38,746 bases of DNA from a virus: IMG/VR virus record IMGVR_UViG_3300045988_141642. One strand, given 5' to 3'. The position numbers and the translations under genes are program-made. Shown piece after piece: positions 1-38,746 of the stretch. The notes beneath the pieces were generated by a model that was not told the origin of the DNA, did not search any database, and saw nothing but the letters and a program-made list of their open reading frames with translations. Positions within the stretch are counted from its first letter, which is position 1. The number at the start of each line of letters is the position of its first letter.

Positions 1-55
1 CCCGCAGCGTGTCCAAAACCTCCTGGGCGTATTCGTCACGCACCGTGTGTTCCGG
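1..55. repeat. Terminal direct repeat copy 1 (assembly overlap of a circular genome)
   Basis: Positions 1..55 (cccgcagcgtgtccaaaacc...caccgtgtgttccgg) are base-for-base identical to 38692..38746. Confidence 0.95.
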
Positions 56-3000
56 AGTGCTATCCAGCAGCTCATGGGCAATTTCTTTCGCCTGGTCCAT
101 GACAGACGAAAAGGTCACATCATCGTTGTTGCCAATGTAGTCAAACAGCCCTTTCAGCTGCACCATCAGGCGGGGTGTGTCCATCTTGCTGCCGGTGGAC
201 TTTTTCAGCTGCCGGGCCACACGCTGTACCTGAGTTTGAGAAGTATGGTGCCCGGTCTCCAGCTCCTGACTGTCAAACACCTGGCGCAGAGTAATGTTCA
301 TCTCGTCCAACCGCTTGTCATCCCGCAGCAGAGAAGTACGCCCGGTGTCGTCTATACTCTTGGACTTGCGACTGTCAGCGTTTAGTCCTTTTTGCAGCTG
401 ATCATTACGCACATTTTCAGGAGTTCTTCCTCCGTTACCGTTCCCTTCTTCTCGTAACGATCCGCGATTGAATTCAACATCGTGATGAAATTCTCTTTGC
501 TGCTTCCCAGATAGGTTACTATTGTCCCGATTGCCGTCTCTGAAGCGTCTAATGAGATCAGCAGCTCGATAAGAAGTTTTGCCAGATCCGTTCTGGACTG
601 ACTTTCTAAGTTCATTGTACTCTCTCCTTGCAGTTGTATCCAATGGTTTGTACACTAAAATATCCCTTGTGGGCGTATCCAGCATTTTGTAAGCATAAAA
701 TCCGCTGCCAATGGTAATGCAGCGCACCTCATTCATGTGGCGGTCTGCGTCCCAAGTCATAACCTCACGCTTTAAGTCCGCATACCGCTTTTTGCCGGTG
801 GTGTTAATCACATCATATCCAGCCTCGTCAAATTCGTCAACCTCTATTTGCTTTGAGTACCGAATATCGGACTGATCTGTAAAGCGTTTACTGGGCGGAA
901 TGATCTTACCGTCATTGTCATAGGTGATTGTATCCGCAGACTTTACCGCATTGGGATTGAAGGCGACATAGACATCTGCTTCTCTGTCGCTGGGGACTTT
1001 GACATTTTCTCCGCCACTGTCTTTAATGCGCTTAAAGACAATGCCGTCATAGCCGCTGGCCTTTGCGTACTCGGCAATATCCCGGGTTGTCGTGAGCCGC
1101 TTATCCATCTTGTTGTCCGTCAAAGTACCCAACGCCTGCTGCGCTTCCGCTGCAGTATTCCAGTTCATTTTGCCGTCAATCCACGCCGGCTGCATGGTAT
1201 TGCGGTCAAAGACTTGGTATGCGCCGTACTGGTTTCGCACTTCGTATCGATCCTGTGGCACTCTGTAATCCAGCCCATTCCAGTAATCGCCGAAAGCATC
1301 CACCACCAACGGATTTTCCAGCTTAGCATACAAGGAATAATTACCCTTGTTGATACACTGCTTCAGTCTGTTTTTGGCTTCTTCCACAGAGAGCAAGTCA
1401 ATACTATATCCGCCTAAGGCTTTTTCAACAATCATCGGTTCTGCATGGTCCAGTTGACGCACCTGATTGAGCAGTCGAACATCCTGTTCAGCTTGACTGA
1501 TCCTTTGGCTTTGTTCCGCGCTGTTGCGGAATGTATCTCCATGGTGCAGTAGCATATAGATCTTGGTGGACAGCTGGTCATAACTGTTTTTATCCAATGC
1601 ATTTTTCAAGTCTTGCAACTTGCGCACGGTCTCTCCGTCACCGTTAAACTGTTCAATTTCCCGATCGACTTCGCCTTTCAGCCATTCCAATTCACCATTC
1701 ACATGCGTGATCAGGTCGTTTCTTCCCTGCATATCCATAACGGAGTAATCGTAGTCCACCGTAGGCTCTTGAGCGTGTTGATTAAGCAAGGTCGCCAGTT
1801 CTTTATTGGACACCGTGTCCACATCCACCTGGTTGCGCTCACTGATCTTTTTACCGCCTTCCACGCCGGAATAGGTAGAAGCGATCACCGGGTCGCTGGT
1901 CATAAAAATACTGCGACCATCACCCATTTTATTCAGGTCAAATTCAGTAAAGCCAAACTGACTGGTTCCGTGATATAGCTTTACCGGTTTGCCGTCTGCA
2001 TCGGTATATGCGCCCCATTCTTTTGCCTGCTGCTCAATGATCTTTGCCTTTTGCTCTTCACCGGCTCGCTGGTATTCCCGATCCACTTCCAAGGAATGCC
2101 GGGTGTCATTTTTGCCGTTCTGTGCATTTTTTTGCTCGTTCTGCATAGAATGAGTATTGACATCAGGTCCATTTTGTGTTACCTTGTTGTCAGACGCAAT
2201 CCCTTGCTTAAAAGGCTTCCTGCTATTTGCATAGCCTTGAGGGGTTGCGTTTTTTATTTTCACATCTGCCTTCCGCATATCCACGATATCATAGAACACC
2301 ATCGCGTTCTGTGTGGTTATGCCAATAATCACATCAGCGGTATATCCGTTTTCACCAACCTTAAGGAGCACATCAGAATGTGCAAACTGCTTGAAGCTAT
2401 CATTTCGGCTGTGCTTCAAGTCTTCAATCTTTTTGTTTTTGCCGGATTTCAGGATCTCATCCAAATTCTGTGCGGATAGCAGTTTATCTTTGTAGGCTGT
2501 CTTTTCCTTTGCTTTAAGGTACTGAGAGTATTTTGAATTCAAAAACTCATTTTTGCTAATGGCATTTACTTTGACTACGCCACCCCACAAATCTACACCT
2601 GATTTATATTCAGACAAAATATTTTTGATTTTTGTCGCCCACCGCGACTTGGACACGCCAGCCAGTACATCATTATCAATAACGACACACGGTTCGCCGT
2701 CTTCTGTAATTTCAATAGAATGGCGAATTTCGGACTGACTATTTTCTGCTTCACCGCCATGCTTACCTTCTAACATTCTTTGGCGGTTGTCAATGGCATT
2801 GTCCAGTGCGTTAAAGAAGTTATCCAGCACCGGCACCTGCTGCGCCGCCTTTTGACCGGCTCGCGCAGTGGTATTCAGTGTGCCCTGTCCCTCAATTACG
2901 CTGCGCACAGCGTCCAGCAGCTTTGTAAAGAAGTCCTTGATCTTTTCCACAACGGACTTCTTTTCTTTTTGGGTCAGGTCGGTATCTTCCGCCAGCCACT

Positions 3001-6000
3001 TGGCGAACTTCTCGCCGCCCTCCTGCGTGCTGGCTTCACCACTGATGAAGTCAAAGATCATCTCGCTGACGGCATCTTCAATAGAATACTGCTTGCCGTT
3101 CTCGCTGTACCCATCTACATATTTCTGCAGCAGGTCAATCTTGTCATCGTGCGCATAATCGCCGGTTGCCAGCATATACTCCACAATCGGCCGGCAGGCG
3201 TCCATCATTTCCGCCGTGTTGTAGGCGTGGGTGTACTCGCCCAGCTCGTGCATAAGTGTGGCGTAGATATGCCCACTGTCCGGGTTCAGCACCACCTTGC
3301 CATTGGCAGGATCAATATAGCCGTTATCGTTGCTTTCCAGGCTGCCGTCCAGCACAATATCCAGCTTGGTCTTGGCCGCCACACGATCCAGGACTTCCTT
3401 TTCCTGCGGGGTAACCGTAGCTTCTCTGGTCAGCGTTACAACGCCGCCCTGGTTCTTGTTTGCTTTGGTAACGGCGGTCTTGGTGGTGCCGATCTCCTTA
3501 GACTGCTCCTGACCGCTCAGGAACAACTCATTGGCAGCACCACGGTCCATAATCCCCATTTCAATCGGTGCAGACAGTGTATTGGCTGCCTGGTCAAATG
3601 TAATCTTGCCTGACGCACCGGCGTTGTAAAAGCTCTCCGCCGCGTGCAGATAGGAATAAGGGTTGACCTTGCTGTCGTAATTTTTTACCAGCGCATAAGC
3701 GCCCAGGGAGCCAAACTTGGCAGCGCTCTTGTAAACCGCCTTGGTGTTGGGGTTGTTGAACTGCAAATAATCCGTGGTGGTCTTCGTACCGTCTTGCAGC
3801 TCGACCACGGTATGGCCGTCCTGGACCTTAAGGACGCCTTTCACTTGGCTCTCCGGCACAGGCTCTGCCCGCTGCAAGTCCACCGGCGTGGCAGCTTCAG
3901 TGACCAGCGCATTATAACTCGTGTCCGCAGAGCCGTGCTCAGTCTCTCTCTGTTCGGCAGGTTCTTGTTCTAAGCGTTCCTGCTCCAACTGGGCAATTTC
4001 AGCCTCAGTGATACCACCATAGGTGTCCTTAAACTCATTATACCCTTTTGCTTTTGGGTTTACAAGCAGTTCATTCATATATGCAGCAGAAGAACCGCCA
4101 CGCAGCATTTCATAGGCCATACTGCGGGTAGTGGATTGTGCCCAGTCGGTGCTATTGTCCTGCAACTCGGCGTACAGGGCCTTTGTGGTCTTGTCCCCTT
4201 TAATCTTCCCTTCGCCGTCGAAATAGCTACTCACAAAGCGGCTGGCGGCCTTGTTCACATTCTTAACGCCGCTGTCTTGCAGCCGTTGGCGCACAGCGTC
4301 CTCCAACACGATCTTTTGAGCCTGCGTAGTCGCAGCATCATCGCTGGTCTGCATTTCCATAGCCAGCTTGCCCAGCTGCCGCTTGGATATAGTTTTGCCG
4401 CTATCCTCTGCATCAGCCAGCTCGGCGGCAATGCGATACAGCTTAGAATTCTTATCTGCTGTCAGCCCGGCGTCAATCAACTCTCCAGCATTCCCGCTGC
4501 GGCGCAAATTCTTGCCATAAATATCCTGCTGCAAATGCCGTTCTCCGGACATGATTGCTTCGTTTGCGCCGCTCATCGCCATACCGGACAGGCCACCGGC
4601 TAAGAAAGCTGATAAATCTTCTTGCCCCGCCATAGACACGACTTTGGCAAGCGCCTGGGAATTGCTCAATCCCTGGGCACGGCATTCATCAAAAGCAGCC
4701 ATCATTTTGCTTTGGTTGCCGTTTGCCAGTGTATCGACAATGCGATCAAGGATATTACTGGCTACTTCTTCCGAACCCTCTGCCGCAAAACTCTTTGCAA
4801 GGCGTGCAAACACATTGCCACCGGCACCGAGGATCGCACCTAAGCCGAGTTTTTCTGAGATATATTCAACCGCGCCATACAGTGCACCTACGCCCAGCGC
4901 ACGATCGTCAGAAAAGCCCTGCTCTTTCATATCTGTAACTGTCTGCGTTGCCATTTGTGAAGCCATAATCAAGGAAGATGCGTTCGCGGCAATCTTTTTA
5001 GCGCTATTCAGCACCTTACTTGAACTGCCCTTGACTGGGAGTTTAATTCCAAGTCCCTGACCTACAGCCATAGAAGCGACAGAGTCTGCCATGGACATAC
5101 CGGTATCATAAATCCATGTGCCGATATTTCCCTGACTTGTATTCTTATCTTTCCAAAAATCCTGCTTTGCAATGGCTTCACCGGTTGTCTTTCGTGTATC
5201 AGAAGACATCTTGCCGGCAAGGTTAGCCAGGTCGTATGTATCGCCTACGCTGCCACCAACGGCTTTGGCGGCAGCGTCCACAATATATCCGGGTGCATTC
5301 ATCAAATTTTCACCGACTGTCGCAGCATTTGCAAGAATCGCTCCTGTTACGCCGTCTTGAGCCATTTTTCTCTGAGACAGAACGGTGGCGTCCGTTGCTT
5401 TTCGTTCAAGGTCTTTATTGATGGCTGAAAGATACTCGTGCGCTGCTTCAGCACCATTTGTGTTGTACAGATAATTGAACACCCCGCGCTGCTCGTCTGT
5501 CATCTGATTGTATTTGGTATCGTCCATCGCCTTGTTCATGCGGTTGCCCCAAAAGGCGATACCGCTCGCGCCAACCGGTGCCACGGCACTTCCAACGGAC
5601 TCTGACAGTCCATTAACAGCTCGATACACGCTGTCCTGATTGGACTTGTCGATCTGCTTTGACTTGTCAGCAAAATCTTTTTGATTAGGAATATCCGAAT
5701 ATTTGTCAACGATTTTTTGTCGCCGCTCGTACTCCTCCATCTCCTGTATCTTCTTATCATATTCATCCAGCGCAGCCATGTGCCGATTGGCTTCTTCCTG
5801 CATTTTTGCGGCGCGCTCGCTATCCGTCCGCTCCAATGCGATACCAATCAGCTTCTCTATGGTGTTGCGTGTTTGACCACCATACTGCCGTGCATAGGAC
5901 CTGCGCTCATCCTGCAAGCGTTCAAGATCACTCCGATCATCGGCTGCACGGATAATTTTGCGCCGCTGTGCAAGACTCTCCTCCTGCGTCTGCTGATGAT

Positions 6001-6196
6001 ATTCAGGCACTTCATTACGCCTATAGCTATTGCGAGCCAATACATCAGCGATCTCCTCTTCCGGGTCGTCATACTCATATCTTTTCTTTTTCGGATCGTA
6101 AAATCTGGAATTTTTTCTTGTGTCCTCAGCAACGCGCTCAGCTGCGCCGGAATGCTGTACCACTTTGGCAAAATTTTTGCTTTTTCTAATATCCAT
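1..6196 (-). CDS. Giant virion polyvalent/internal-core-like protein, N-terminal part. This is one 3,442-codon ORF that wraps through the circular junction and stops at 34559.
   Basis: ATG at 6196 has GAGGA 8 nt upstream and lies 17 nt after the stop of 6213..7256. Hand translation of the minus frame (codon first bases at positions = 1 mod 3) gave MDIRKSKNFAKVVQHSG... with no stop down to position 1. Frame checkpoints at 5563, 3253, 2731, 2107, 1978, 868 and 43 all agree. The ORF track omits it because its stop lies beyond the window edge. Track ORFs in 47..6200 are antisense or off-frame. Confidence 0.8.
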   Translation of the reverse strand, partial: MDIRKSKNFAKVVQHSGAAERVAEDTRKNSRFYDPKKKRYEYDDPEEEIADVLARNSYRRNEVPEYHQQTQEESLAQRRKIIRAADDRSDLERLQDERRSYARQYGGQTRNTIEKLIGIALERTDSERAAKMQEEANRHMAALDEYDKKIQEMEEYERRQKIVDKYSDIPNQKDFADKSKQIDKSNQDSVYRAVNGLSESVGSAVAPVGASGIAFWGNRMNKAMDDTKYNQMTDEQRGVFNYLYNTNGAEAAHEYLSAINKDLERKATDATVLSQRKMAQDGVTGAILANAATVGENLMNAPGYIVDAAAKAVGGSVGDTYDLANLAGKMSSDTRKTTGEAIAKQDFWKDKNTSQGNIGTWIYDTGMSMADSVASMAVGQGLGIKLPVKGSSSKVLNSAKKIAANASSLIMASQMATQTVTDMKEQGFSDDRALGVGALYGAVEYISEKLGLGAILGAGGNVFARLAKSFAAEGSEEVASNILDRIVDTLANGNQSKMMAAFDECRAQGLSNSQALAKVVSMAGQEDLSAFLAGGLSGMAMSGANEAIMSGERHLQQDIYGKNLRRSGNAGELIDAGLTADKNSKLYRIAAELADAEDSGKTISKRQLGKLAMEMQTSDDAATTQAQKIVLEDAVRQRLQDSGVKNVNKAASRFVSSYFDGEGKIKGDKTTKALYAELQDNSTDWAQSTTRSMAYEMLRGGSSAAYMNELLVNPKAKGYNEFKDTYGGITEAEIAQLEQERLEQEPAEQRETEHGSADTSYNALVTEAATPVDLQRAEPVPESQVKGVLKVQDGHTVVELQDGTKTTTDYLQFNNPNTKAVYKSAAKFGSLGAYALVKNYDSKVNPYSYLHAAESFYNAGASGKITFDQAANTLSAPIEMGIMDRGAANELFLSGQEQSKEIGTTKTAVTKANKNQGGVVTLTREATVTPQEKEVLDRVAAKTKLDIVLDGSLESNDNGYIDPANGKVVLNPDSGHIYATLMHELGEYTHAYNTAEMMDACRPIVEYMLATGDYAHDDKIDLLQKYVDGYSENGKQYSIEDAVSEMIFDFISGEASTQEGGEKFAKWLAEDTDLTQKEKKSVVEKIKDFFTKLLDAVRSVIEGQGTLNTTARAGQKAAQQVPVLDNFFNALDNAIDNRQRMLEGKHGGEAENSQSEIRHSIEITEDGEPCVVIDNDVLAGVSKSRWATKIKNILSEYKSGVDLWGGVVKVNAISKNEFLNSKYSQYLKAKEKTAYKDKLLSAQNLDEILKSGKNKKIEDLKHSRNDSFKQFAHSDVLLKVGENGYTADVIIGITTQNAMVFYDIVDMRKADVKIKNATPQGYANSRKPFKQGIASDNKVTQNGPDVNTHSMQNEQKNAQNGKNDTRHSLEVDREYQRAGEEQKAKIIEQQAKEWGAYTDADGKPVKLYHGTSQFGFTEFDLNKMGDGRSIFMTSDPVIASTYSGVEGGKKISERNQVDVDTVSNKELATLLNQHAQEPTVDYDYSVMDMQGRNDLITHVNGELEWLKGEVDREIEQFNGDGETVRKLQDLKNALDKNSYDQLSTKIYMLLHHGDTFRNSAEQSQRISQAEQDVRLLNQVRQLDHAEPMIVEKALGGYSIDLLSVEEAKNRLKQCINKGNYSLYAKLENPLVVDAFGDYWNGLDYRVPQDRYEVRNQYGAYQVFDRNTMQPAWIDGKMNWNTAAEAQQALGTLTDNKMDKRLTTTRDIAEYAKASGYDGIVFKRIKDSGGENVKVPSDREADVYVAFNPNAVKSADTITYDNDGKIIPPSKRFTDQSDIRYSKQIEVDEFDEAGYDVINTTGKKRYADLKREVMTWDADRHMNEVRCITIGSGFYAYKMLDTPTRDILVYKPLDTTARREYNELRKSVQNGSGKTSYRAADLIRRFRDGNRDNSNLSGKQQREFHHDVEFNRGSLREEGNGNGGRTPENVRNDQLQKGLNADSRKSKSIDDTGRTSLLRDDKRLDEMNITLRQVFDSQELETGHHTSQTQVQRVARQLKKSTGSKMDTPRLMVQLKGLFDYIGNNDDVTFSSVMDQAKEIAHELLDSTPEHTVRDEYAQEVLDTLR
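382..615 (-). CDS. Candidate overlapping +1-frame ORF (77 aa) inside the giant gene
   Basis: ATG at 615 is preceded by AAGGAGAGAG at about 8 nt. The product looks helical (MNLESQSRTDLAKLLIELLISLD...) and its codon usage is more genome-typical than the main frame over the same nucleotides. It could instead be a +1 frameshift arm or chance. Confidence 0.3.
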   Translation of the reverse strand: MNLESQSRTDLAKLLIELLISLDASETAIGTIVTYLGSSKENFITMLNSIADRYEKKGTVTEEELLKMCVMISCKKD

Positions 6197-6212
6197 AGTT
6201 TTTCCTCGCCAT

Positions 6213-7256
6213 TCAAAACAGTTTTGTACCCAAACTAAAGTTCGGCTTCCCGGGATTGGGCGGTATGCTCACATTGCGTTTCTTCACATGCAGATTACCG
6301 TTTTTATCCTCTTTAATCTCAACCGCCTTGCTATCAATAAGGTAGTCGAATTTTGCCTCGCTGATTGGGCCATACCCCAAAGCGAGTATCTCACTTTTTG
6401 GTACGCCATGATATTCCGGCTTCACCTTATTTTTTCTCTTACCGCCAGTGTCAAAACCAGTACCGGAGCCACCGCGTCCACTGGATCTGGAAGAGCGAGA
6501 AGAGCGTGCAGCCTTTGCAGCCTTTGCAGCCTTTGCAGCTTCCTCCTGCTGCCGTTTCCACTGCAGTACATCCAGCTGGTAATCCTGATCAGCCTTCCAC
6601 TTGGAGAGCGCTCTGTCCGCCTTGCTCTCACCCAAGTTGCCCTCGTATTTAGCCATATCGCTAAGGAAGGACAGGTTATCACTGTATGCCTGGCTATCTA
6701 CCGCACCGGTCTTTTCCACCGCTGCGTCCCACAGAGAGCGTGCATTCTGTAAAGCTTCCACCTTGTCCTGGTACTTTTGGTAATCAAACGCACCGGCCTC
6801 GTTGGCTCGCTGCCCACCGGCGGCTTTATTCTCCATTTCCCCGGAGTGAATTTGGTTTGCCGTAGACAGTTTAGACAGCAAGTCCTCATTCTGACCAGCC
6901 AATCCGTTCATATAGCTCTGCTGGGCAGCAGGAACGGTGTAGTCCGTGTCATAGCCACCGGCCATATTCTCTTCTGCGTTAGTCTGCGTGTCCGCTGCTG
7001 CCAGCTTAGAAAGCGCCGCATAATCTCTGGCGTAATCGCCGAACACATCAGCGTTGCCGAAATTGGAAGACTGGGCACGGCGATTGAGAATATCATCCAC
7101 CGCACCCTCTACCATCTTAGCGAATGTACCGTTACGGTAAGGGCCAATTGCGCTGAGTTTCTTGTCATAGTCGTTCCTGTTTTTCTGTGCATTCTTGGTT
7201 GCCGCAGACTGTTTCACCTTGCCAAGCGCTTTTCTGGTCTTAGAACTGTAACTCAT
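6213..7256 (-). CDS. Low-complexity virion protein (347 aa), internal/ejection-protein-like by position
   Basis: Track ORF with a strong RBS (AAGGAGGAATTGG-ATG). It is Q/N/A/K-rich with AAKAAKAAKAARSSRSSRSS and a basic C-terminal domain, and is tightly packed in the late operon. Confidence 0.75.
   Translation of the reverse strand: MSYSSKTRKALGKVKQSAATKNAQKNRNDYDKKLSAIGPYRNGTFAKMVEGAVDDILNRRAQSSNFGNADVFGDYARDYAALSKLAAADTQTNAEENMAGGYDTDYTVPAAQQSYMNGLAGQNEDLLSKLSTANQIHSGEMENKAAGGQRANEAGAFDYQKYQDKVEALQNARSLWDAAVEKTGAVDSQAYSDNLSFLSDMAKYEGNLGESKADRALSKWKADQDYQLDVLQWKRQQEEAAKAAKAAKAARSSRSSRSSGRGGSGTGFDTGGKRKNKVKPEYHGVPKSEILALGYGPISEAKFDYLIDSKAVEIKEDKNGNLHVKKRNVSIPPNPGKPNFSLGTKLF
6508..6539. repeat. 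9-bp tandem repeat (gcagccttt x3.5) inside 6213..7256
   Basis: Seen directly. It encodes AAKAAKAAKA and is adjacent to a second short repeat encoding RSSRSSRSS. Confidence 0.9.
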
Positions 7257-7267
7257 CCAATTCCTCC

Positions 7268-8074
7268 TTACTTCTTGTTAAGAATTTTTCGCTGAAGTTT
7301 GTTATTCCGATCGGCAATAGCCCTTTCCTGTTTGCGTGCCTGTTGGCTCTCGTTCAGGTTGCCGTAATACTGCTGTTGACCGGAGGCAAAGCTGCGATCA
7401 TCGTTCCATTTCGTGTAATCGTTGGAATAGGAAGTGTTGAACCGATTCGTGTTGTAATCCATCTTGTTATAGGCGTTGCCCACAGCGTCCTGATACCGCC
7501 CATACTGCTGCTGATTCACACTATCAAGAAGGTCATAGGCATTCTGCTTACCTTGCTGCTGTTGGTCATATTTTTGATATGCCAGGGACAAAAGCTGCGA
7601 CTGTGTATTGGACAGGTTGTTCAACTGCGCCTGGTTGGCAGCATTACCCGCCGTAGTCGCCGCAGAGGAGGCATAGCCACCTGTTGCTGACGCCATCTGG
7701 CCCATCGTGTCCAGCATATCATTACGGCCCTGCGCCTGGTACTGTGCCTTATAGGCCCGGTATGCAGCGTCATTGTCTGCGTCATAAGAAAACTTTGACT
7801 TTAAGATGCCACCCAACATGTTTTGCAGCCGGGCGGTATAGTCCGTCAAGCCGTTTGCCTTGGCATACCCGCCATAGCCGCCGTTTAACAGAGAATTGTA
7901 GCCTTTGACACTGGCGTCCATGTCCTTCTTTTCCTTGGACTTCATCAGTGCTTTATAGTCCTTGGAATTGGTCCATCCGCCGCTATACTTATTGACTGTT
8001 TTTGTCCAGCTGCTCAGGTTCTTTTGCGCAGCCGTCTGTTTGGGCTTGCTTTTCTTTGGTTTGCTCTTTGCCAT
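7268..8074 (-). CDS. Q/N/Y/G-rich low-complexity virion protein (268 aa)
   Basis: Track ORF. RBS is GGGGGA 9 nt upstream. It has a lysine-rich N-terminus (MAKSKPKKSKPKQ) and sits between the tail genes and the giant ORF. Confidence 0.75.
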   Translation of the reverse strand: MAKSKPKKSKPKQTAAQKNLSSWTKTVNKYSGGWTNSKDYKALMKSKEKKDMDASVKGYNSLLNGGYGGYAKANGLTDYTARLQNMLGGILKSKFSYDADNDAAYRAYKAQYQAQGRNDMLDTMGQMASATGGYASSAATTAGNAANQAQLNNLSNTQSQLLSLAYQKYDQQQQGKQNAYDLLDSVNQQQYGRYQDAVGNAYNKMDYNTNRFNTSYSNDYTKWNDDRSFASGQQQYYGNLNESQQARKQERAIADRNNKLQRKILNKK

Positions 8075-8641
8075 TTATCTGATCCCCCATATATACGATA
8101 TTGTTCGTGCTGTGATCGTCACGCTGCCGCTTTTCACATTGGCAGAATAGCAGTTGTCGATCGTTACCTTATTTCCTGCGTAGTCGCCGTCCACGGACCA
8201 CACAGTAAAGTCTGTTGCGCCAATGTGCGTATGCGATCCGCGAACGGCAGTGCAGCTACGGTCTCCGTCCAGAATAGGACACAGGGCGTGCATCCAGCTA
8301 TTGCTAAAGCGGATAAGCAGAAAGCGGTAGTTGTCCACGCTGTCATTCAGAGTGATCGTATCGCCAGCCTTTGCGGTACTCCCGCTGAACAGTAGAGCGG
8401 ATGACCGACCGTCCCGGATCATCTCGTCCACCTGCTCCGTTTTCAGGCCTTTTGTACTCCGCTGATCACCGTCTCCGCCATTGGTTAATGACGCCAAAAA
8501 AGTCCGCGTCAGATTCTGTTCGTCCATGTTGTTCAGCGCATAATTCAACTTATCTGCCATCTGGTTCAGGTACAGATACAGACGCTGTATCCGCTGACTA
8601 TCCGTTACGCCGTCAGACGGCTTACCAATGTTAAAAGTCAT
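8075..8641 (-). CDS. Tail-associated structural protein (188 aa), function by position only
   Basis: Track ORF. Its start overlaps the stop of the 893-aa gene (ATGA). It abuts the next gene with no gap. Confidence 0.75.
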   Translation of the reverse strand: MTFNIGKPSDGVTDSQRIQRLYLYLNQMADKLNYALNNMDEQNLTRTFLASLTNGGDGDQRSTKGLKTEQVDEMIRDGRSSALLFSGSTAKAGDTITLNDSVDNYRFLLIRFSNSWMHALCPILDGDRSCTAVRGSHTHIGATDFTVWSVDGDYAGNKVTIDNCYSANVKSGSVTITARTISYIWGIR

Positions 8642-34558: not shown

Positions 34559-37500
34559 TTATTTGCTTTTCAGCCAGGCGTTAGTACGGTTATAGATCTC
34601 GTCTGCCGTGTACAGTCCGGTGTTGTACATCTTCTGTCGAATATTTCGGCGGGTGGTTTCATCGCCCTTAATGTACTTATCCTTGTACGCAGCGGTAATG
34701 CGGCTCTTAATATAAGCACCGTCTTTGCCCGCTTTTCCGGCTTTCTCAAGCTGTGAGATAATGCTTTTCACTTTGCCGGAACTGGTATCCATAGCCTTGA
34801 CCACATCGGAGCTGCTGTACGGTATGCCGGTCTTGTTGGTATGGCCCTTAGCCATCGTTGCCACTTCATCCATCGTGAAGTAGTCATCCGAAGCAATGGC
34901 CCGCACATTCGCCTCGTATGTATCAAACGCGCCAACCTTATAGGCTTCCGCAGCACGCAGCAGCCGTTCATCCGACTTGGCGAACTCTCGGCGTATGGCC
35001 TTGTCCACCATATCCTCGGCCTTGTCCTTGGTATAGCCGTTCTTGACAGCCGTGTTTATCAGGTCTTGGCGCATACGCTTGGTGCCAGAGTTGTCATTCT
35101 TACTGATCGCCAACGCCACATCGCTGTAATCATAGCGCGACTTCAATTTGCCCTTAGGCTCATTGCTGGTGTCTACATGATCGCTCACATACTTCTCCAG
35201 CGCCTTGGCATCAAAGCCGGTGGCTACCACTTGGTCGAACTTCTCCTTGTACTCCGCCTTATACTCTTCTGTGCCGTCGTCATTCTCCTTGGCCGTGACT
35301 AATGCCTTGGCGGCGGACTCAATACCATCTACTGCCTTAACGGCGATCTCGTCACTAAAGCCCAGCTTGATAATATCTTGCAGCCGAGCATCAAAGCCGT
35401 CATAGTCACCCTCCAAATGAGCCTGCGCAGCCTTGCCGGCATTCTGGTCATTGGCCTTGACCGCAGCCACCAGCATACGGTTAAAGGTCTCATCGTCTCC
35501 GGCCTCTCGCTGCATACGATCAACGATCTCCTGATCGCCGGTAGATACAGCCTTATAGAGCTTTGCAGACTTGTCTGTATCCGGGAACATCTCAATGCCG
35601 AACTTCTCCAGCAAATCATCAATGAGCAGCTGGCCCTTCATCTCGTCATTAAACACTTCCTTGGTGCCGGTTGCGCCGGTGTGCATATCCAATGTGGCCT
35701 TGTGGATCACATTGAATACAGATTGCACATCCCGAGCTACGTTCTTGTATGGCAGACCGACAAAGGCGGACAAGGCGCCGGCCAAGCGGTTGATCTTCTG
35801 GCCAGTGCTGATGGTGTCACTGTCCATAGCTTGAACAGCATCACGCAGATCTATGAGCAGGTTCATATCTGCCCGGCTCACATCGTAGCCCATAAATATA
35901 GAGATTGCATCTTTCAGCATCGGAAGTTGTCCTGCCGGGTTCAAATTGCTCCACATATTCGGCAGCAGCTGACCGAGGTACACTTCCAGGTAAGTCTTGT
36001 CGTCATCATCGTCTCGTGCTGCTGTAACGATAGACTGAAGAATAGAGTTGAGCGCCGCAGCTGCCACAAGCGATCCAACAACCCTTGCGCCATAGGACTT
36101 GGGGGCATTTCCGTTCTTCACCTGGTACACAGCGTCCACCAGCATGTTCAGAGAAGTGGTAGGCTCAGCCATGAAGGCCGTTGCCATCTTCATAGCGTTA
36201 TCAGACGAACGCATCATACCCGATCGGGAAAATACAGAGTCATACACTTGGGTGCGGTCTACTACTTCAGAGAACCGTTCCCCGGCCTTCTGGTATGCAG
36301 CCTCACCGGTCAGGTGAAAATCTGTTTTGGCCTCGTGTACGCAGGCATTCCAGATATGTGCCCAGGTCAGTTCATCCGCCTTTTCCGGCAACGCAGACAG
36401 CACGCTGTCCCGGTAGTCGCTGTCCGTGACCAGCGCTCGCAGCTTTTTGCCAAAGCCGCGCGGCTTGTCTGAGTTGATCCAGTCCGTGGCCGTCTTGCCC
36501 ATTCCGGTATCAAAATAGCCCATCTCCTTGACAATAGCCACCGGGGCGTACTTTTTCAGCTGCGCATAATCCCGCTTGCTAACAGTCGTGGCCACAAAAT
36601 GCTTAGCCGGAATCACTGCCATCGCTCTGGCGATCGCAGATGGCTGCTGGATAGCCACAGAAGCAGACGCAAACACGGCACCCTTCTTGAACAGACTGAT
36701 ACCCTTGTTCACATACCGTGAGCCATTGTCCGGTCGCACACCGCCGTTCAGGTCTCGGATGAATTGCTCAATATACCGTTTGGACTCCGTGTCCATATAG
36801 CCACGCACCGCCTGCGATACCGTACCGTTTTCGCCAACCTGGGTGTGGTAGTTGTACACCCGCTGGAAGTCCTCCAGCGGCAGCGTGAACGCATGATACA
36901 ACGCCATATCATTTACATGATTGGCCCACACATCATCGAAAGACGAAATGACCAGGGCATTGTTGGCGTGTACATTCAGCTGATTTGTAAAGCCGCTGTT
37001 CTTGATCTTGGCGTCACCATTGGCCTTGTCCTGAATATACTGCACATAATCACCGGCGGAACGCATGGGGATATAGTCGCTGTCCGTAAACAGGTCCATA
37101 TCGTACATCACCCGAGATACCTCGTTGCCCTTAGCGCCCATTGTATCTGCCAAATAGCGCTGCATATCCTGGGCGTAGGCTTTCTGCTCCTTGGTGAGCA
37201 TATCCGTGGCCTTGGCAATGTCTTCCACGGTCAGCGGGTGTGCCGTGTTGTCCGTCAGCTCCACAATGCGCTTGCCCCGCTTGGAGCGGGTAGATACCTT
37301 GTCAAACACCATACCGCCCTGGGTCAAGTGCTGCATTGCCGGTTCGCGCCGACTGAGCGCATACAAATAGAGCAGCTGCTGCAAATTGAATTTCAGCTTT
37401 TCGCCGTACTGGGTATCCAAAGTAAAGGTCCTTTTTGGGTTCCAGTTGTAGGCATGGTACTTCTCTTTCAATCGCTGAGAATACTGCCGCGCATCGTAGC

Positions 37501-38746
37501 AATCCCGGGCCCAGGTGTCCTGACCACCGCGCAAGTTGTGGTATAGCTTCTCCAGCGTAGGCGAGCCTTGCATTCTGAAGAAATACTCCGGCTTCAAGGC
37601 GTTGTAGCCAAAGCCCTTCATAAACTCGATACGCTCGTTGGTCTTCTTACCATTGGGATCCTTTTTGCTGCCCTTCAGTTCATGAATGATCTGCTGGCCC
37701 TGGCTCTCCACCGTAGCAGTTTTCTCTGCCTTGAATAGGCGGTTGCTGTTGGTAACAGCCTTTTTGACCGACCGGATCAGCTGATAGGTTTGTTCCAGCT
37801 CATCAGCGGTCATGTCGTTAATGGACTTGTCGCCAATGCTCTCCTTTAACTGGAGGATTTGTCCCTTAAACAGATTGTTGTAGTCCTCCACCAGAGTGGC
37901 ATACTCGGTCTTTTGGCTATCATTGCCTTCTATTTTGTCGAAGCCGTCTCTAACCTTATTCAGGTAGCTGTCCAGCCTCTCCCCGGCCTTGCCGTCCAGA
38001 ACCACAGCCCTACCCAGTTCTTTCACGCTGTCCAGAAGTCCATTGGGCACCCGGCGCTCTTTGCCGCCGTTTGCCGCCAGGCTCATCAAGTCCAGTATCT
38101 GCTTCTTGATTTTGTTCTTCTGCACCGTCTTGCGCCGCTTTTCCACATCGCGGTGCCGCCGTTCTGCGTATAGCTGCCGCTGGGCTTTCAGCTGATCGGC
38201 GTACTGGGTACGCATATCTGCTTTGTCCTGCCGACTCTTGGATTGTACCGCCTTCAACTTCTCTTCATACCGCTGGCGGTAATCATCCTTAACGGACTGG
38301 AGCCGCTTGCGGTATTTGTTCTGCATCGCAGTAAAGCGATCGTTCTGTCGCTGGGCATAGGTCTTGTACTCCGGAGTGTCCATGTACGCATCAAAAATAT
38401 CATAGGCCACGGTAGTGGCAGCATCGTCCATGTCCATACCGTCATAGGAATAATAAGAGTCTTTCAACTCCTCCACGATCTCCAGCAGTCGCTCCGGCAT
38501 GTTCTGGCTATTCTCCTCAGCATCAAAAGTGCCCGGGTACAGTTCAGCCAGCTCCTGCCAAGCGCTATCCAAAGACTGTCCATTCTTAGCCAGATTGACC
38601 GCACCAAACAGTCGTTTGCGGTAGTTGCCATACCGATCATGGTGGTAAGCCGTCTCCGCCTTTTGCTCATCGGACAGCGTGATTGCCATACCCCGCAGCG
38701 TGTCCAAAACCTCCTGGGCGTATTCGTCACGCACCGTGTGTTCCGG
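34559..38746 (-). CDS. Giant virion polyvalent/internal-core-like protein, C-terminal part
   Basis: Track ORF 34559..38734 (1391 aa) is the same frame continued through the 55-bp overlap. Its listed GTG start is internal (...ELLDSTPEHT-VRDEYAQEVLDTLRG...). TAA at 34559..34561 is followed by an intrinsic terminator. Confidence 0.85.
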   Translation of the reverse strand, partial: PEHTVRDEYAQEVLDTLRGMAITLSDEQKAETAYHHDRYGNYRKRLFGAVNLAKNGQSLDSAWQELAELYPGTFDAEENSQNMPERLLEIVEELKDSYYSYDGMDMDDAATTVAYDIFDAYMDTPEYKTYAQRQNDRFTAMQNKYRKRLQSVKDDYRQRYEEKLKAVQSKSRQDKADMRTQYADQLKAQRQLYAERRHRDVEKRRKTVQKNKIKKQILDLMSLAANGGKERRVPNGLLDSVKELGRAVVLDGKAGERLDSYLNKVRDGFDKIEGNDSQKTEYATLVEDYNNLFKGQILQLKESIGDKSINDMTADELEQTYQLIRSVKKAVTNSNRLFKAEKTATVESQGQQIIHELKGSKKDPNGKKTNERIEFMKGFGYNALKPEYFFRMQGSPTLEKLYHNLRGGQDTWARDCYDARQYSQRLKEKYHAYNWNPKRTFTLDTQYGEKLKFNLQQLLYLYALSRREPAMQHLTQGGMVFDKVSTRSKRGKRIVELTDNTAHPLTVEDIAKATDMLTKEQKAYAQDMQRYLADTMGAKGNEVSRVMYDMDLFTDSDYIPMRSAGDYVQYIQDKANGDAKIKNSGFTNQLNVHANNALVISSFDDVWANHVNDMALYHAFTLPLEDFQRVYNYHTQVGENGTVSQAVRGYMDTESKRYIEQFIRDLNGGVRPDNGSRYVNKGISLFKKGAVFASASVAIQQPSAIARAMAVIPAKHFVATTVSKRDYAQLKKYAPVAIVKEMGYFDTGMGKTATDWINSDKPRGFGKKLRALVTDSDYRDSVLSALPEKADELTWAHIWNACVHEAKTDFHLTGEAAYQKAGERFSEVVDRTQVYDSVFSRSGMMRSSDNAMKMATAFMAEPTTSLNMLVDAVYQVKNGNAPKSYGARVVGSLVAAAALNSILQSIVTAARDDDDDKTYLEVYLGQLLPNMWSNLNPAGQLPMLKDAISIFMGYDVSRADMNLLIDLRDAVQAMDSDTISTGQKINRLAGALSAFVGLPYKNVARDVQSVFNVIHKATLDMHTGATGTKEVFNDEMKGQLLIDDLLEKFGIEMFPDTDKSAKLYKAVSTGDQEIVDRMQREAGDDETFNRMLVAAVKANDQNAGKAAQAHLEGDYDGFDARLQDIIKLGFSDEIAVKAVDGIESAAKALVTAKENDDGTEEYKAEYKEKFDQVVATGFDAKALEKYVSDHVDTSNEPKGKLKSRYDYSDVALAISKNDNSGTKRMRQDLINTAVKNGYTKDKAEDMVDKAIRREFAKSDERLLRAAEAYKVGAFDTYEANVRAIASDDYFTMDEVATMAKGHTNKTGIPYSSSDVVKAMDTSSGKVKSIISQLEKAGKAGKDGAYIKSRITAAYKDKYIKGDETTRRNIRQKMYNTGLYTADEIYNRTNAWLKSK
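38692..38746. repeat. Terminal direct repeat copy 2
   Basis: Identical to 1..55. Unique genome length is therefore 38,691 bp. Confidence 0.95.

What the first reader, a model, noticed from the sequence alone, without database searches (positions are those of the whole stretch)
382..655. Alternative-frame ORF with its own SD inside a rare-codon linker of the giant gene (overlapping gene or +1 frameshift arm)
**The +1 frame.** On the minus strand it is open from 654 to 385. It has an ATG at 615 preceded by AAGGAGAGAG at about 8 nt. Its 77-aa product (MNLESQSRTDLAKLLIELLISLDASETAIGTIVTYLGSSKENFITMLNSIADRYEKKGTVTEEELLKM...) reads like amphipathic helices.

**The main frame over the same nucleotides.** It is an R/N/G/S-rich disorder-like linker (...REYNELRKSVQNGSGKTSYRAADLIRRFRDGNRDNSNLSGKQQREFHHDVEFNRGSLREEGNGNGGRTPENVRND...).

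**Codon usage, by hand count.** About 45 of 77 third positions are G/C in the +1 frame, against about 29 of 81 in the main frame. The main frame uses five AGA plus CGA, CTA and TTA codons there. It returns to genome-typical codons immediately after the +1 stop (TAA 382..384). The main frame nevertheless has no stop, so both frames appear to be maintained.

**Frameshift possibility.** Main-frame CTT-AGA-A at 610..604 has the form of the Ty1-type +1 slippery heptamer (CUU-AGR-N, a peptidyl Leu codon followed by a rare Arg codon). A shift there would enter this ORF and give a truncated product of about 1,940 aa.

None of the other off-frame track ORFs inside the giant gene looks protein-like.
Basis: partly seen in the sequence, partly recalled or inferred. 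Interest (0 to 1): 0.65.

Follow-up and report, generated by a model that had tools for sequence, protein, structure and literature searches.

The report
Small gene nested inside giant phage gene
A 77-codon gene with its own ribosome-binding site and start codon sits in the +1 frame inside a 3,442-codon phage "polyvalent protein" gene; evolution protects both readings, and gut bacteria keep stand-alone copies of the small gene in their chromosomes.

Summary
On the minus strand the +1 frame is open 654..385. It has GGAG 8 nt before ATG 615 and TAA at 384..382, inside an unbroken giant ORF.

The overlapping-gene reading is strongly supported.
- **Selection phase.** Substitutions switch phase exactly over the ORF. 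dN/dS is 0.17 in the +1 frame against an apparent 5.2 in the main frame, and the main frame returns to about 0 downstream.
- **Main frame kept open.** Given the small protein, the chance that the main frame stays open is 0.001-0.007 per variant, yet it is open in all 15 long-ORF copies.
- **Depth of conservation.** The nesting, with SD and ATG, recurs in relatives down to about 30% identity. A second, 65-aa family occupies the same slot.
- **Fold.** Both products are predicted as confident four-helix bundles (pLDDT 91 and 94). No known family matches.
- **Bacterial copies.** In decayed chromosomal copies the small ORF is intact in 44 of 47, while the main frame is broken inside the overlap in 17 of 47.

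The frameshift reading is not supported. CTT-AGA-A is confined to the closest variants, and some lineages have a +1-frame stop 1-4 codons before the ATG.

The function is only inferred: probably a cassette-linked partner or neutraliser of the neighbouring protein module.

The parts
382..615 (-). Nested +1-frame gene: ATG 615..613 to TAA 384..382. Product is 77 aa, 8.6 kDa, pI 4.9, predicted four-helix bundle ('family A').
   Evidence: Sequence. dN/dS 0.17-0.36 in this frame. Codon log-odds +0.277 per codon. AlphaFold2 pLDDT 90.7, pTM 0.79. The identical 77-aa protein is called on 465 contigs.
620..629 (-). Shine-Dalgarno sequence AAGGAGAGAG. The GGAG core at 627..624 lies 8 nt before the ATG.
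   Evidence: Sequence. A GGAG/GAGG/AGGA core 7-10 nt before the ATG is present in 18 of 18 lineages of both small-protein families.
385..654 (-). Whole open stretch of the +1 frame (90 codons), bounded upstream by TAG 657..655.
   Evidence: The same 90-codon stretch is open in loci L001-L007.
374..631 (-). Main-frame spacer of the giant protein (about aa 1856-1941; R/N/G/S-rich, pI 10) read over the same nucleotides. It shows no amino-acid constraint but is kept free of stop codons.
   Evidence: Apparent dN/dS 1.5-5.2. P(open) 0.001-0.007 by synonymous resampling, with no T at the third position in 21-28 at-risk contexts. Lowest codon score in the gene.
632..847 (-). 'Module Y' of the giant protein (aa 1784-1855, IEVDEFDEAGYDV...ILVYKPLDTT). 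This small main-frame module always precedes family-A nested ORFs.
   Evidence: the same module lies upstream of family A in L033, L036, L037, L050-L053, L066 and others.
812..840 (-). Promoter-like site: TTGACG, 17 nt, TATGAT (10 of 12 matches), about 200 nt upstream of the nested ATG. It coincides with the VDEFDE.GYD motif. Candidate internal promoter, unproven.
   Evidence: Same register and 17-nt spacing, 8-11 of 12 matches, in all 11 distinct sequences carrying the motif. The Val/Ile/Leu third base is always T, although GTT is only 17% of Val codons here.
350..373 (-). Junction motif SRKSKSID in the main frame, just after the nested stop. It is a boundary of mosaic exchange between relatives.
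   Evidence: L013-L015 are 98-100% identical from here on but carry different modules before it.
604..610 (-). CTT-AGA-A heptamer proposed as a +1 shift site. It is present but not conserved.
1..6196 (-). 5' part (aa 1-2065) of the giant polyvalent-protein gene, starting at ATG 6196. It holds an ART-PolyVal domain, an HELGEYTH motif at 3250..3227, and junction motifs IRHSIE, TRHSLEVD and IRYSKQ.
   Evidence: (PF18760: E 5.9e-11, 43.7 bits against a cut-off of 31.2).
34559..38691 (-). 3' part of the same giant gene after the circular join. The whole ORF is 3,442 codons.
   Evidence: 55-bp terminal direct repeat and frame continuity. Length. PHROG 22978, a 3,513-position profile.
38692..38746 (.). 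Terminal direct repeat of positions 1-55, an assembly overlap of a circular genome of 38,691 bp.

Best explanation
**What it is.** Positions 615..382 (minus strand) are a genuine protein-coding gene nested out of frame (+1) inside the 3,442-codon polyvalent-protein gene of a temperate, P22-portal-type phage of gut Clostridia.

**How it is made.** It is translated from its own Shine-Dalgarno sequence and ATG, not by frameshifting. It may also have its own internal promoter at 840..812. The product is a free, acidic 77-aa four-helix protein.

**What the outer gene does here.** Ribosomes translating the giant gene read the same nucleotides in the main frame as a basic, low-complexity spacer. Its amino-acid sequence is not constrained. 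It only has to lack stop codons so that the C-terminal 1,500 residues are still made.

**What travels together.** The small gene moves as a cassette with the short main-frame module just upstream (module Y, after the ADP-ribosyltransferase domain).

**Shown here:** dual coding, selection on both frames, deep conservation, and survival of the small ORF on its own.

**Inferred only:**
- The small protein acts with or on its cassette's module, as a neutraliser ('immunity' protein) or as a chaperone.
- It sits in another frame because that is the only way to stay linked to that module without breaking the giant ORF.
- Bacteria that keep promoter-driven arrays of these small ORFs gain protection against incoming phage.
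For: 1. **Phase switch of substitutions (window vs L002).** Inside the ORF, differences fall 10/2/23 on +1-frame codon positions 1/2/3. Downstream of its stop they fall 0/16/0, all on main-frame third positions.
2. **Nei-Gojobori estimates.** In the overlap the +1 frame has dN/dS 0.17-0.36 and the main frame an apparent 1.5-5.2. In the 375 nt downstream the main frame has 0.00-0.03. The second family gives the same pattern (0.38 against 1.16).
3. **Main frame kept open by selection.** Given each small protein and the genome's codon usage, P(main frame open) is 0.001-0.007 in each of six variants. T never occupies the third position in the 21-28 contexts where it would create a stop, but it does in 4-10 of 41-51 other contexts. 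Both frames are open in all 15 unique copies that lie in ORFs of at least 600 aa.
4. **Deep conservation.** An HMM search of 1.8 billion representatives finds a family of 74-101-aa proteins. Every context examined is again a +1 nesting in a polyvalent-type frame downstream of an ART domain and module Y, in DNA of 36-51% GC (L033, L036, L037, L031, L049-L081). The main frame spans the ORF in 29 of 33 metagenome loci; the third frame spans it in 0 of 33.
5. **Start signals.** SD and ATG are conserved in 18 of 18 lineages.
6. **Fold.** AlphaFold2 gives pLDDT 90.7. For the 65-aa family in the same slot it gives 94.4. Both are four-helix bundles.
7. **Independent survival.** In decayed or chromosomal copies the small ORF is intact in 44 of 47 while the main frame is broken within the same nucleotides in 17 of 47. 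Fisher p = 7e-4. The two frames have an equal mutational target for stops (30-39 against 27-37 single changes).
8. **Chromosomal arrays.** These lie between tuf and tRNA-Pro/cinA. The one examined in detail (L023) holds seven intact small ORFs behind a 12-of-12 consensus promoter.
9. **Uniqueness within the gene.** This is the only region of the giant gene with an aberrant substitution phase in the comparisons with L057 and L005.
Against: - There are no expression data: no transcript, ribosome footprint or peptide.
- All comparison sequences are metagenome or MAG assemblies, and the copies counted are not phylogenetically independent. Some loci were retrieved through an intact small ORF. The passenger copies of the second family, which were not used for retrieval, still give 21 of 23 small ORFs intact against 12 of 23 main frames broken (p = 0.003).
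- The function is unsupported by homology. Nothing matches in Pfam, PHROGs, NCBIfam, PADLOC, PDB sequences, or Foldseek against PDB and BFVD.
- The candidate promoter could be a by-product of the conserved DEFDE.GYD peptide motif.
- Internal initiation inside an actively translated ORF may be inefficient.
- Two single-contig proteins (P0073, P0078) read across the two frames, and fusions of module X with the second family occur in arrays. I read these as indel mutants, but they show that fused products can arise.
Confidence: 0.82

Rival explanations
1. Programmed +1 ribosomal frameshift. Ribosomes translating the giant gene slip at CTT-AGA-A (610..604) into the +1 frame and make a truncated protein of about 1,940 aa that ends in the four-helix domain. 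The purine-rich stretch would be a stimulator rather than a start signal.
For: - The heptamer exists and is in the main frame, and AGA is rare: 5.4 per 1000 codons.
- One singleton protein (P0073) has module Y fused in frame to the small domain.
- Fusions of module X with the second family occur in arrays. These show that a fused product is at least tolerated.
Against: - The heptamer is seen only in the window and L002 types. Other lineages read ATC-CGA-A, ATT-AGA-A, GTT-AAC-A, GCT-AAA-C or GAT-AAC-A at that place.
- In L050, L037, L008, L010 and L017 the +1 frame has a stop 1-4 codons before the ATG, so entry upstream is impossible there.
- By contrast, the ATG and an SD 7-10 nt upstream are invariant.
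- The small ORFs persist, with SD and ATG, where no giant ORF precedes them.
- P0073 and P0078 are each seen on a single contig.
Confidence: 0.04
2. Relic rather than working gene. The stretch derives from a once free-standing small gene that was swallowed when two polyvalent genes fused. The +1-frame signal would be inherited history and the ORF is no longer expressed. Only the read-through spacer matters today.
For: - An origin by capture of a free gene is plausible. The +1 frame looks like the constrained reading and the main frame like a by-product.
- There is no expression evidence.
Against: - Purifying selection is visible among recent variants: dN/dS is 0.17 at dS 0.56 between the window and L002.
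- SD, ATG and full length are kept in lineages only about 30% identical.
- In decayed copies the +1 frame outlives the main frame. A relic should decay at least as fast.
Confidence: 0.05
3. The nested gene is real but has a different role. It could be a regulator or a counter-defence protein that works for the phage, independently of the polyvalent protein. Examples would be a small regulator in the manner of comS within srfA, an anti-defence protein, or a superinfection-exclusion factor expressed from the prophage. On this view the nesting only saves space.
For: - Small acidic helical proteins are typical of phage anti-defence and regulatory factors (my own knowledge).
- A promoter-like site lies upstream.
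- Nothing ties the protein biochemically to module Y.
Against: - Family A is always paired with module Y and the second family with module X. The pairs move as cassettes across mosaic relatives and in arrays.
- A 38.7-kb phage with ordinary intergenic space has no evident need to nest this one gene.
- Bacteria keeping seven copies behind a consensus promoter fits a host-protective role better than a pro-phage one.
- None of this is decisive.
Confidence: 0.2

Closest known systems
comS nested out of frame within srfAB, the giant surfactin synthetase gene of Bacillus subtilis (my own knowledge; papers listed but not read)
   Same: - A short ORF lies in another reading frame wholly inside a very large modular gene of a Firmicute.
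- It is translated from its own start and yields a small free protein with a function of its own.
   Different: - comS is a 46-aa regulator of competence in a cellular gene and forms one lineage.
- Here the host gene is a phage polyvalent protein, and two small-protein families occupy the same slot.
- The unit moves as a cassette, and bacteria keep orphan copies.
- No sequence similarity was looked for or seen.
Rz1 embedded in the +1 frame of Rz (phage lambda spanins), and B within A and E within D in phiX174 (my own knowledge; overlapping genes in viruses are reviewed in PMC8227390, listed, not read)
   Same: - A complete phage gene is nested in the +1 frame of a larger gene, with its own start.
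- Both products are needed.
- In Rz/Rz1 the two products act together.
   Different: - The product has no signal peptide or lipobox as Rz1 has, judged by reading the sequence.
- It is not in a lysis cassette.
- The outer reading here is an unconstrained spacer rather than a folded functional segment.
- The outer gene is about ten times longer.
Toxin-immunity cassettes and orphan immunity arrays of polymorphic toxin systems such as CdiA-CT/CdiI and Rhs (Zhang et al. 2012, cited in PMC5512222). Cassette-like ORFs near polyvalent genes are noted by Iyer et al. 2017 (PMC5512222).
   Same: - A small cognate gene is tightly linked to a variable protein module.
- The pairs are exchanged as units at conserved junctions.
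- Arrays of orphan cassettes sit in chromosomes.
   Different: - There the immunity gene lies downstream of the toxin gene, not inside it in another frame.
- No toxicity or neutralisation has been shown here.
- There is no homology to any known immunity family.
- Iyer et al. mention neither overlap nor frameshift: 0 occurrences of either word.
Programmed +1 frameshifting (prfB/RF2, Ty1)
   Same: A Leu codon followed by a rare Arg codon, with a purine-rich stretch upstream, in this one sequence.
   Different: - The site is not conserved.
- The spacing from the SD is wrong for stimulation.
- The +1 frame is closed just upstream of the ATG in several relatives.

Membership tests
Out-of-frame nested (overlapping) protein-coding gene | Both reading frames are open over the shared nucleotides, more often than chance allows | tested here: met
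   - Both frames are open in the window and in all 15 unique copies inside ORFs of at least 600 aa.
- P(main frame open) is 0.001-0.007 per variant.
- The third frame is never open, 0 of 33.
Out-of-frame nested (overlapping) protein-coding gene | Purifying selection on the nested frame | tested here: met
   - dN/dS is 0.17-0.38 in the +1 frame against 1.2-5.2 (apparent) in the main frame.
- The phase reverts after the stop.
- This is the only such region in the gene in the comparisons with L057 and L005.
Out-of-frame nested (overlapping) protein-coding gene | Own translation start (RBS plus start codon), conserved | tested here: met
   An SD core lies 7-10 nt before the ATG in 18 of 18 lineages.
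Out-of-frame nested (overlapping) protein-coding gene | The product is actually made | not testable with these tools
   - No transcriptome, ribosome-profiling or proteome data were available.
- Indirect support: confident predicted folds and survival of the ORF without the outer frame.
Programmed +1 ribosomal frameshift site | Slippery or hungry-codon heptamer conserved among relatives | tested here: not met
   CTT-AGA-A is seen only in the window and L002 types. Six other sequences occupy that place elsewhere.
Programmed +1 ribosomal frameshift site | The target frame is open from the shift site, with no need for a start codon | tested here: not met
   The ATG is invariant, and the +1 frame is closed 1-4 codons upstream of it in five lineages.
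Programmed +1 ribosomal frameshift site | A trans-frame fusion protein is produced | not testable with these tools
   Only two single-contig chimeric ORFs were found (P0073, P0078), plus indel fusions in arrays.
Polyvalent protein of phages and conjugative elements (Iyer et al. 2017) | A very large multi-domain protein of a phage or plasmid carrying conflict-type effector domains | tested here: met
   - The ORF is 3,442 aa in a phage with capsid, P22-type portal, large terminase and serine recombinase genes.
- ART-PolyVal (PF18760) scores 43.7 bits against a cut-off of 31.2.
- An HExxH motif is present at 3250..3227; it was not tested further.
Toxin-immunity cassette (polymorphic-toxin logic) | The small protein belongs to a known immunity or antitoxin family | tested here: not met
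   There is no consistent hit in Pfam, NCBIfam, PADLOC, PHROGs or PDB.
Toxin-immunity cassette (polymorphic-toxin logic) | Fixed pairing of the small gene with a variable module, plus orphan cassettes in arrays | tested here: met
   - Family A occurs with module Y and the 65-aa family with module X, in phages and in arrays.
- L023 holds seven intact small ORFs in an array behind a consensus promoter.
Toxin-immunity cassette (polymorphic-toxin logic) | The module is toxic and the small protein neutralises it by binding | not testable with these tools
   This needs co-expression, binding assays or prediction of the complex.
Rz/Rz1-type embedded spanin | The nested product is a lipoprotein with a signal peptide and lipobox, within a lysis cassette | tested here: not met
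   - Read from the sequence: MNLESQSRTDLAK... has no hydrophobic leader or lipobox Cys, and the protein is acidic and soluble-looking.
- The outer gene is not a lysis gene.

The most novel reading that the evidence does not exclude
The nested ORFs are the cognate 'immunity' (neutraliser) genes of individual effector modules of an injected phage polyvalent protein. They are forced into an alternative frame because that is the only way to stay genetically linked to their module inside one uninterrupted giant ORF. Gut bacteria have captured these ORFs into promoter-driven arrays beside tuf. Those arrays would work as an anti-phage 'orphan immunity' island that disarms incoming polyvalent proteins. 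This would be a new kind of phage defence and a new reason for genes to overlap.
Probability: 0.25. Interest if true: 0.85.

Novelty: new variant of a known kind. Interest (0 to 1): 0.72.

Why it matters
- **Missed by annotation.** Overlapping genes are known in phages, but this one lies inside a class of giant proteins whose biology is almost untested. The common gene callers do not, as far as I know, report a gene that lies wholly inside another on the same strand, so such ORFs would go unannotated where the giant gene is intact. The family matches nothing in Pfam, PHROGs, NCBIfam or PADLOC.
- **A clean case of dual coding.** One frame carries the amino-acid constraint and the other carries only a 'no stop' constraint. 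This makes it a useful test set for methods that detect overlapping genes.
- **An unusually well-posed experiment.** Single-base changes exist that kill one reading and are silent in the other.
- **Link to host chromosomes.** Bacterial arrays of intact small ORFs behind a consensus promoter suggest that these proteins matter in the conflict between gut bacteria and their phages. If they neutralise polyvalent-protein modules, that would give both a function for those modules and a new defence principle.

Tried and rejected
- **Annotated collections.** tblastn of both small proteins and of the giant C-terminal part against annotated phages (INPHARED), and of the 77-aa protein against plasmids (PLSDB), gave no match. 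No annotated relative exists there.
- **Family libraries.** Pfam, PHROGs, NCBIfam and PADLOC gave only scattered sub-threshold hits for the small proteins, each to a different family.
- **PDB by sequence.** The top hits are engineered protein-A repeat constructs with no single stretch passing. I judged them spurious.
- **Fold comparison.** Foldseek against PDB gave nothing with E below 2. Against BFVD, the best match for family A is an uncharacterised 64-aa gut-phage protein, A0A8S5NB41 (TM 0.72/0.86, E 0.16). It is also second for the 65-aa family (TM 0.59). This hints at a shared fold and gives no function.
- **Are the two families related?** hhalign of the 77-aa family against the 65-aa family gave probability 3-7%. 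Homology is not established. Both models have four helices of similar lengths.
- **RNA families.** Rfam found nothing in 1..1500. An RNA element does not explain the conservation, and the codon-phase pattern argues against one anyway.
- **Thin or redundant scans.** The genome-contig scan returned only 4 loci. Viral scans with the family alignments returned only loci already in hand.
- **Module Y as a protein query.** It returned only short unnamed fragments.
- **attP idea.** I considered that the phage attachment site lies inside the giant gene, because array homology ends at window 38620-38625. I could not support this and left it open.
- **Second copy in the window.** I looked for a second nested copy with HMMs of both families against all six frames and found none.
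Full report
**1. What is in the sequence.**
- On the minus strand one ORF is open from 6268 to position 2 and runs off the window.
- The window has a 55-bp terminal direct repeat, so it is a circular genome of 38,691 bp.
- The ORF continues across the join to a stop at 34559. From ATG 6196 it is 3,442 codons long.
- The rest of the window encodes a capsid protein, a P22-type portal, a large terminase and a serine recombinase, so this is a temperate tailed phage.
- The giant protein carries an ART-PolyVal domain above Pfam's threshold and matches PHROG 22978. It is therefore a 'polyvalent protein' in the sense of Iyer et al. 2017 (PMC5512222).
- Inside it the +1 frame is open 654..385, with TAG 657..655, AAGGAGAGAG 629..620, ATG 615..613 and TAA 384..382.

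**2. Is it more than chance?**
- Length alone is not. The same gene has other +1-frame open stretches of 103 and 125 codons.
- The codon statistics are. The +1 frame scores +0.277 log2-odds per codon. Other +1-frame windows of this gene average -0.60 +/- 0.19 and none exceeds -0.157.
- The main frame drops to 0.097 per codon, below every other window of the gene (mean 0.573, minimum 0.27).
- G/C at third positions is 45/77 in the +1 frame against 27/78 in the main frame. AGA occurs five times, where about 0.4 would be expected.

**3. Comparative test.** Sixteen viral loci carry relatives of this part of the gene.
- In L001-L007 both frames are open at the same place.
- Between the window and L002, differences inside the ORF fall 10/2/23 on +1-frame codon positions 1/2/3. 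Downstream of the stop they fall 0/16/0, all on main-frame third positions.
- Nei-Gojobori estimates over the 231-nt overlap are as follows:

| Region and frame | dN | dS | dN/dS |
|---|---|---|---|
| Overlap, +1 frame | 0.092 | 0.556 | 0.17 |
| Overlap, main frame | 0.213 | 0.041 | 5.2 (apparent) |
| 375 nt downstream, main frame | 0.000 | 0.219 | about 0 |

- More distant pairs give 0.25-0.36 in the +1 frame against about 1.5 in the main frame.
- A sliding scan of about 2,600 aligned codons of the giant gene against L057 and L005 flags only this region.
- The other off-frame ORFs of the gene are R/C/W-rich, and some gain stops in relatives.

**4. The main frame is also under selection, but only to stay open.**
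- I kept each small protein fixed and redrew its codons from the genome's usage. The main frame is then stop-free in 0.09-0.7% of draws for each of six variants.
- In the real sequences T never occupies the third position in the 21-28 contexts where it would create TAA, TAG or TGA in the main frame. It does occupy 4-10 of the 41-51 harmless contexts.
- All 15 unique copies that lie in ORFs of at least 600 aa have both frames open.
- So the region is truly dual-coding. One frame carries amino-acid constraint and the other a 'no stop' constraint.

**5. Depth and breadth.**
- The 77-aa protein itself is on record on 465 contigs, and all close relatives are 76-77 aa.
- A profile search of 1.84 billion representative proteins finds a family of 74-101-aa proteins. 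They share the motif RY[DE]xKGxVTE[EQ][DE]xLKM, at about 27-37% identity to the window's protein.
- Every context I could read is again a +1 nesting inside a polyvalent-type frame. The order is always the C-terminal end of an ART domain, a short 'module Y', the nested ORF, then a junction motif. This holds for L033, L036, L037, L031/32 and L049-L081.
- This holds in DNA of 36-51% GC.
- The main frame spans the ORF in 29 of 33 metagenome loci. The third frame spans it in none.
- Relatives L008-L015 carry a different 65-aa ORF in the same slot and the same +1 phase, paired with a different 'module X'. Its dN/dS pattern is the same.
- I could not show that the two families are homologous.
- Both are predicted with high confidence as four-helix bundles: pLDDT 90.7 and 94.4, pTM 0.79 for each.
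- Neither matches any known family or fold with an annotated function.

**6. Start signals and the frameshift idea.**
- An SD core 7-10 nt before an ATG is present in 18 of 18 lineages.
- CTT-AGA-A is seen only in the window and L002 types. The homologous main-frame codons differ in every other lineage.
- In five lineages the +1 frame is closed 1-4 codons before the ATG.
- The two proteins that read across frames (P0073, P0078) are single-contig singletons.
- I therefore reject programmed frameshifting as the conserved mechanism.
- A promoter-like site (TTGACG, 17 nt, TATGAT) lies at 840..812. It recurs in the same register in all 11 distinct sequences carrying the motif, with an invariant synonymous T at the Val/Ile/Leu codon.
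- It coincides with a conserved peptide motif, so I count it only as a candidate.

**7. Free-standing copies in bacteria.**
- The identical 77-aa protein and its relatives also lie in bacterial chromosomes, between tuf and tRNA-Pro/cinA. They sit in arrays of fragments of polyvalent genes.
- In L023 the array (about 4810-8850) holds seven intact small ORFs. Its main frame has several stops and frame changes.
- It is preceded by a 12-of-12 consensus promoter, and no same-strand terminator-like site was found within it.
- Over all 47 unique copies in short or decayed contexts, the small ORF is intact in 44. The main frame is broken inside the very same nucleotides in 17 (Fisher p = 7e-4).
- The two frames offer equal targets for stop-creating mutations, 30-39 against 27-37.
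- For copies of the 65-aa family, which were never used to retrieve the loci, the counts are 21 of 23 small ORFs intact against 12 of 23 main frames broken (p = 0.003).
- The copies are related, so these p-values overstate independence. The direction is nevertheless clear: the small ORF is worth keeping without the giant protein.

**8. Mechanism.**
- *Shown:* a nested gene with its own start, selection on both frames, cassette-wise inheritance with module Y (or X) at conserved junctions, and independent persistence in hosts. For the junctions, L013-L015 are 98-100% identical after SRKSKSID and differ before it.
- *Inferred:* the small acidic protein (pI 4.9) works with or on the adjacent module of the polyvalent protein.
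- I favour a neutraliser or 'immunity' role, with a chaperone role as second choice. Three observations fit the logic of polymorphic-toxin cassettes: the tight pairing, the exchange as a unit, and the host arrays of orphan copies.
- Iyer et al. already noted cassette-like ORFs near some polyvalent genes.
- Placing the partner gene in another frame is the only way to keep it next to an internal module without interrupting the giant ORF.
- I put about 0.8 on the nested-gene core and about 0.25-0.35 on the immunity-type function.

**9. Comparison and novelty.**
- The nearest analogues are comS inside srfAB and Rz1 inside Rz (my own knowledge). The arrangement is a known kind.
- These features are new as far as my searches show:
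  - the outer gene is an injected-effector polyprotein;
  - the outer reading is a pure spacer;
  - two small-protein families share the slot;
  - the nesting is conserved down to about 30% identity;
  - bacteria hold promoter-driven arrays of the nested ORFs.
- The Iyer et al. paper contains neither 'overlap' nor 'frameshift'.
- I rate this a new variant of a known kind.

Noticed in passing
window 1-55 and 38692-38746: A 55-bp terminal direct repeat shows that the window is a complete circular phage genome of 38,691 bp. The giant ORF crosses the join and is 3,442 codons, about 27% of the genome.
   Followed up: yes
L023 4772-8850 (also L017-L026, L028, L054-L061): Bacterial chromosomes carry, between tuf and tRNA-Pro(ggg)/cinA, an array of polyvalent-gene fragments. 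It holds seven intact nested-type ORFs (65-90 aa) behind a perfect TTGACA-18-TATAAT promoter at 4772-4801. Integrases of other elements sit next to it in some strains, so it is also an integration hot spot.
   Followed up: partly
L008-L015 (e.g. L008 about 3482-3691; L013 about 2800-3000): A second small-protein family (65 aa, MIT...ELLDKIHELQEN) is nested in the same +1 phase, at the same place before SRKSK, and paired with a different upstream module (RVGFDNALT...GLRISDN.ILVE). Homology to the 77-aa family was not demonstrable.
   Followed up: partly
window 2728-2711, 2104-2081, 865-848, 373-350: Main-frame motifs recur at module boundaries of the giant protein: IRHSIE, TRHSLEVD, IRYSKQ and SRKSKSID (consensus about x-R-[HYK]-S-x-x-[IV]-[DE]). 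They coincide with break points of mosaic exchange and with joins in the arrays. They may be recombination junctions, sites for a processing protease, or both.
   Followed up: partly
window 3250-3227: An HELGEYTH (HExxH) motif lies in the giant protein. It may be the metallopeptidase that polyvalent proteins often carry for self-processing. No Pfam hit.
   Followed up: no
window 840-812: The peptide motif VDEFDE.GYD is encoded by a promoter-like TTGACG-17-TATGAT. The synonymous T of the Val/Ile/Leu codon is invariant in 11 of 11 distinct relatives, and GAC is used in 9 of 11.
   Followed up: partly
L023 7374-7832; proteins P0047, P0049, P0050, P0073, P0078: One-base indels have fused a main-frame module to the nested ORF (X with the 65-aa family; Y with the 77-aa family) or the nested ORF to the main frame. 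P0073 and P0078 are single-contig. The X fusions sit in arrays on several contigs.
   Followed up: partly
P0016 (3,888-bp ENA contig): A recombinant nested protein: its first 15 residues are of the window type and the rest is of the L004 type. Exchange therefore also happens inside the small gene.
   Followed up: no
window 38620-38625: Homology between the chromosomal arrays and the phage stops here, about 70 nt past the circular join and inside the giant gene. In the bacteria the next feature is tRNA-Pro. Whether this marks an old attachment site is unresolved.
   Followed up: partly
window 385-447 (last 21 codons of the nested ORF): KGTVTEEE[LV]LKMC[VI]MISCKKD is almost invariant across the 16 aligned relatives (only two conservative L/V and V/I changes), and the main frame (…GNGGRTPENVRNDQLQKG…) is conserved over the same stretch. 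This is the one part of the overlap where both readings, or the DNA itself, seem constrained.
   Followed up: no
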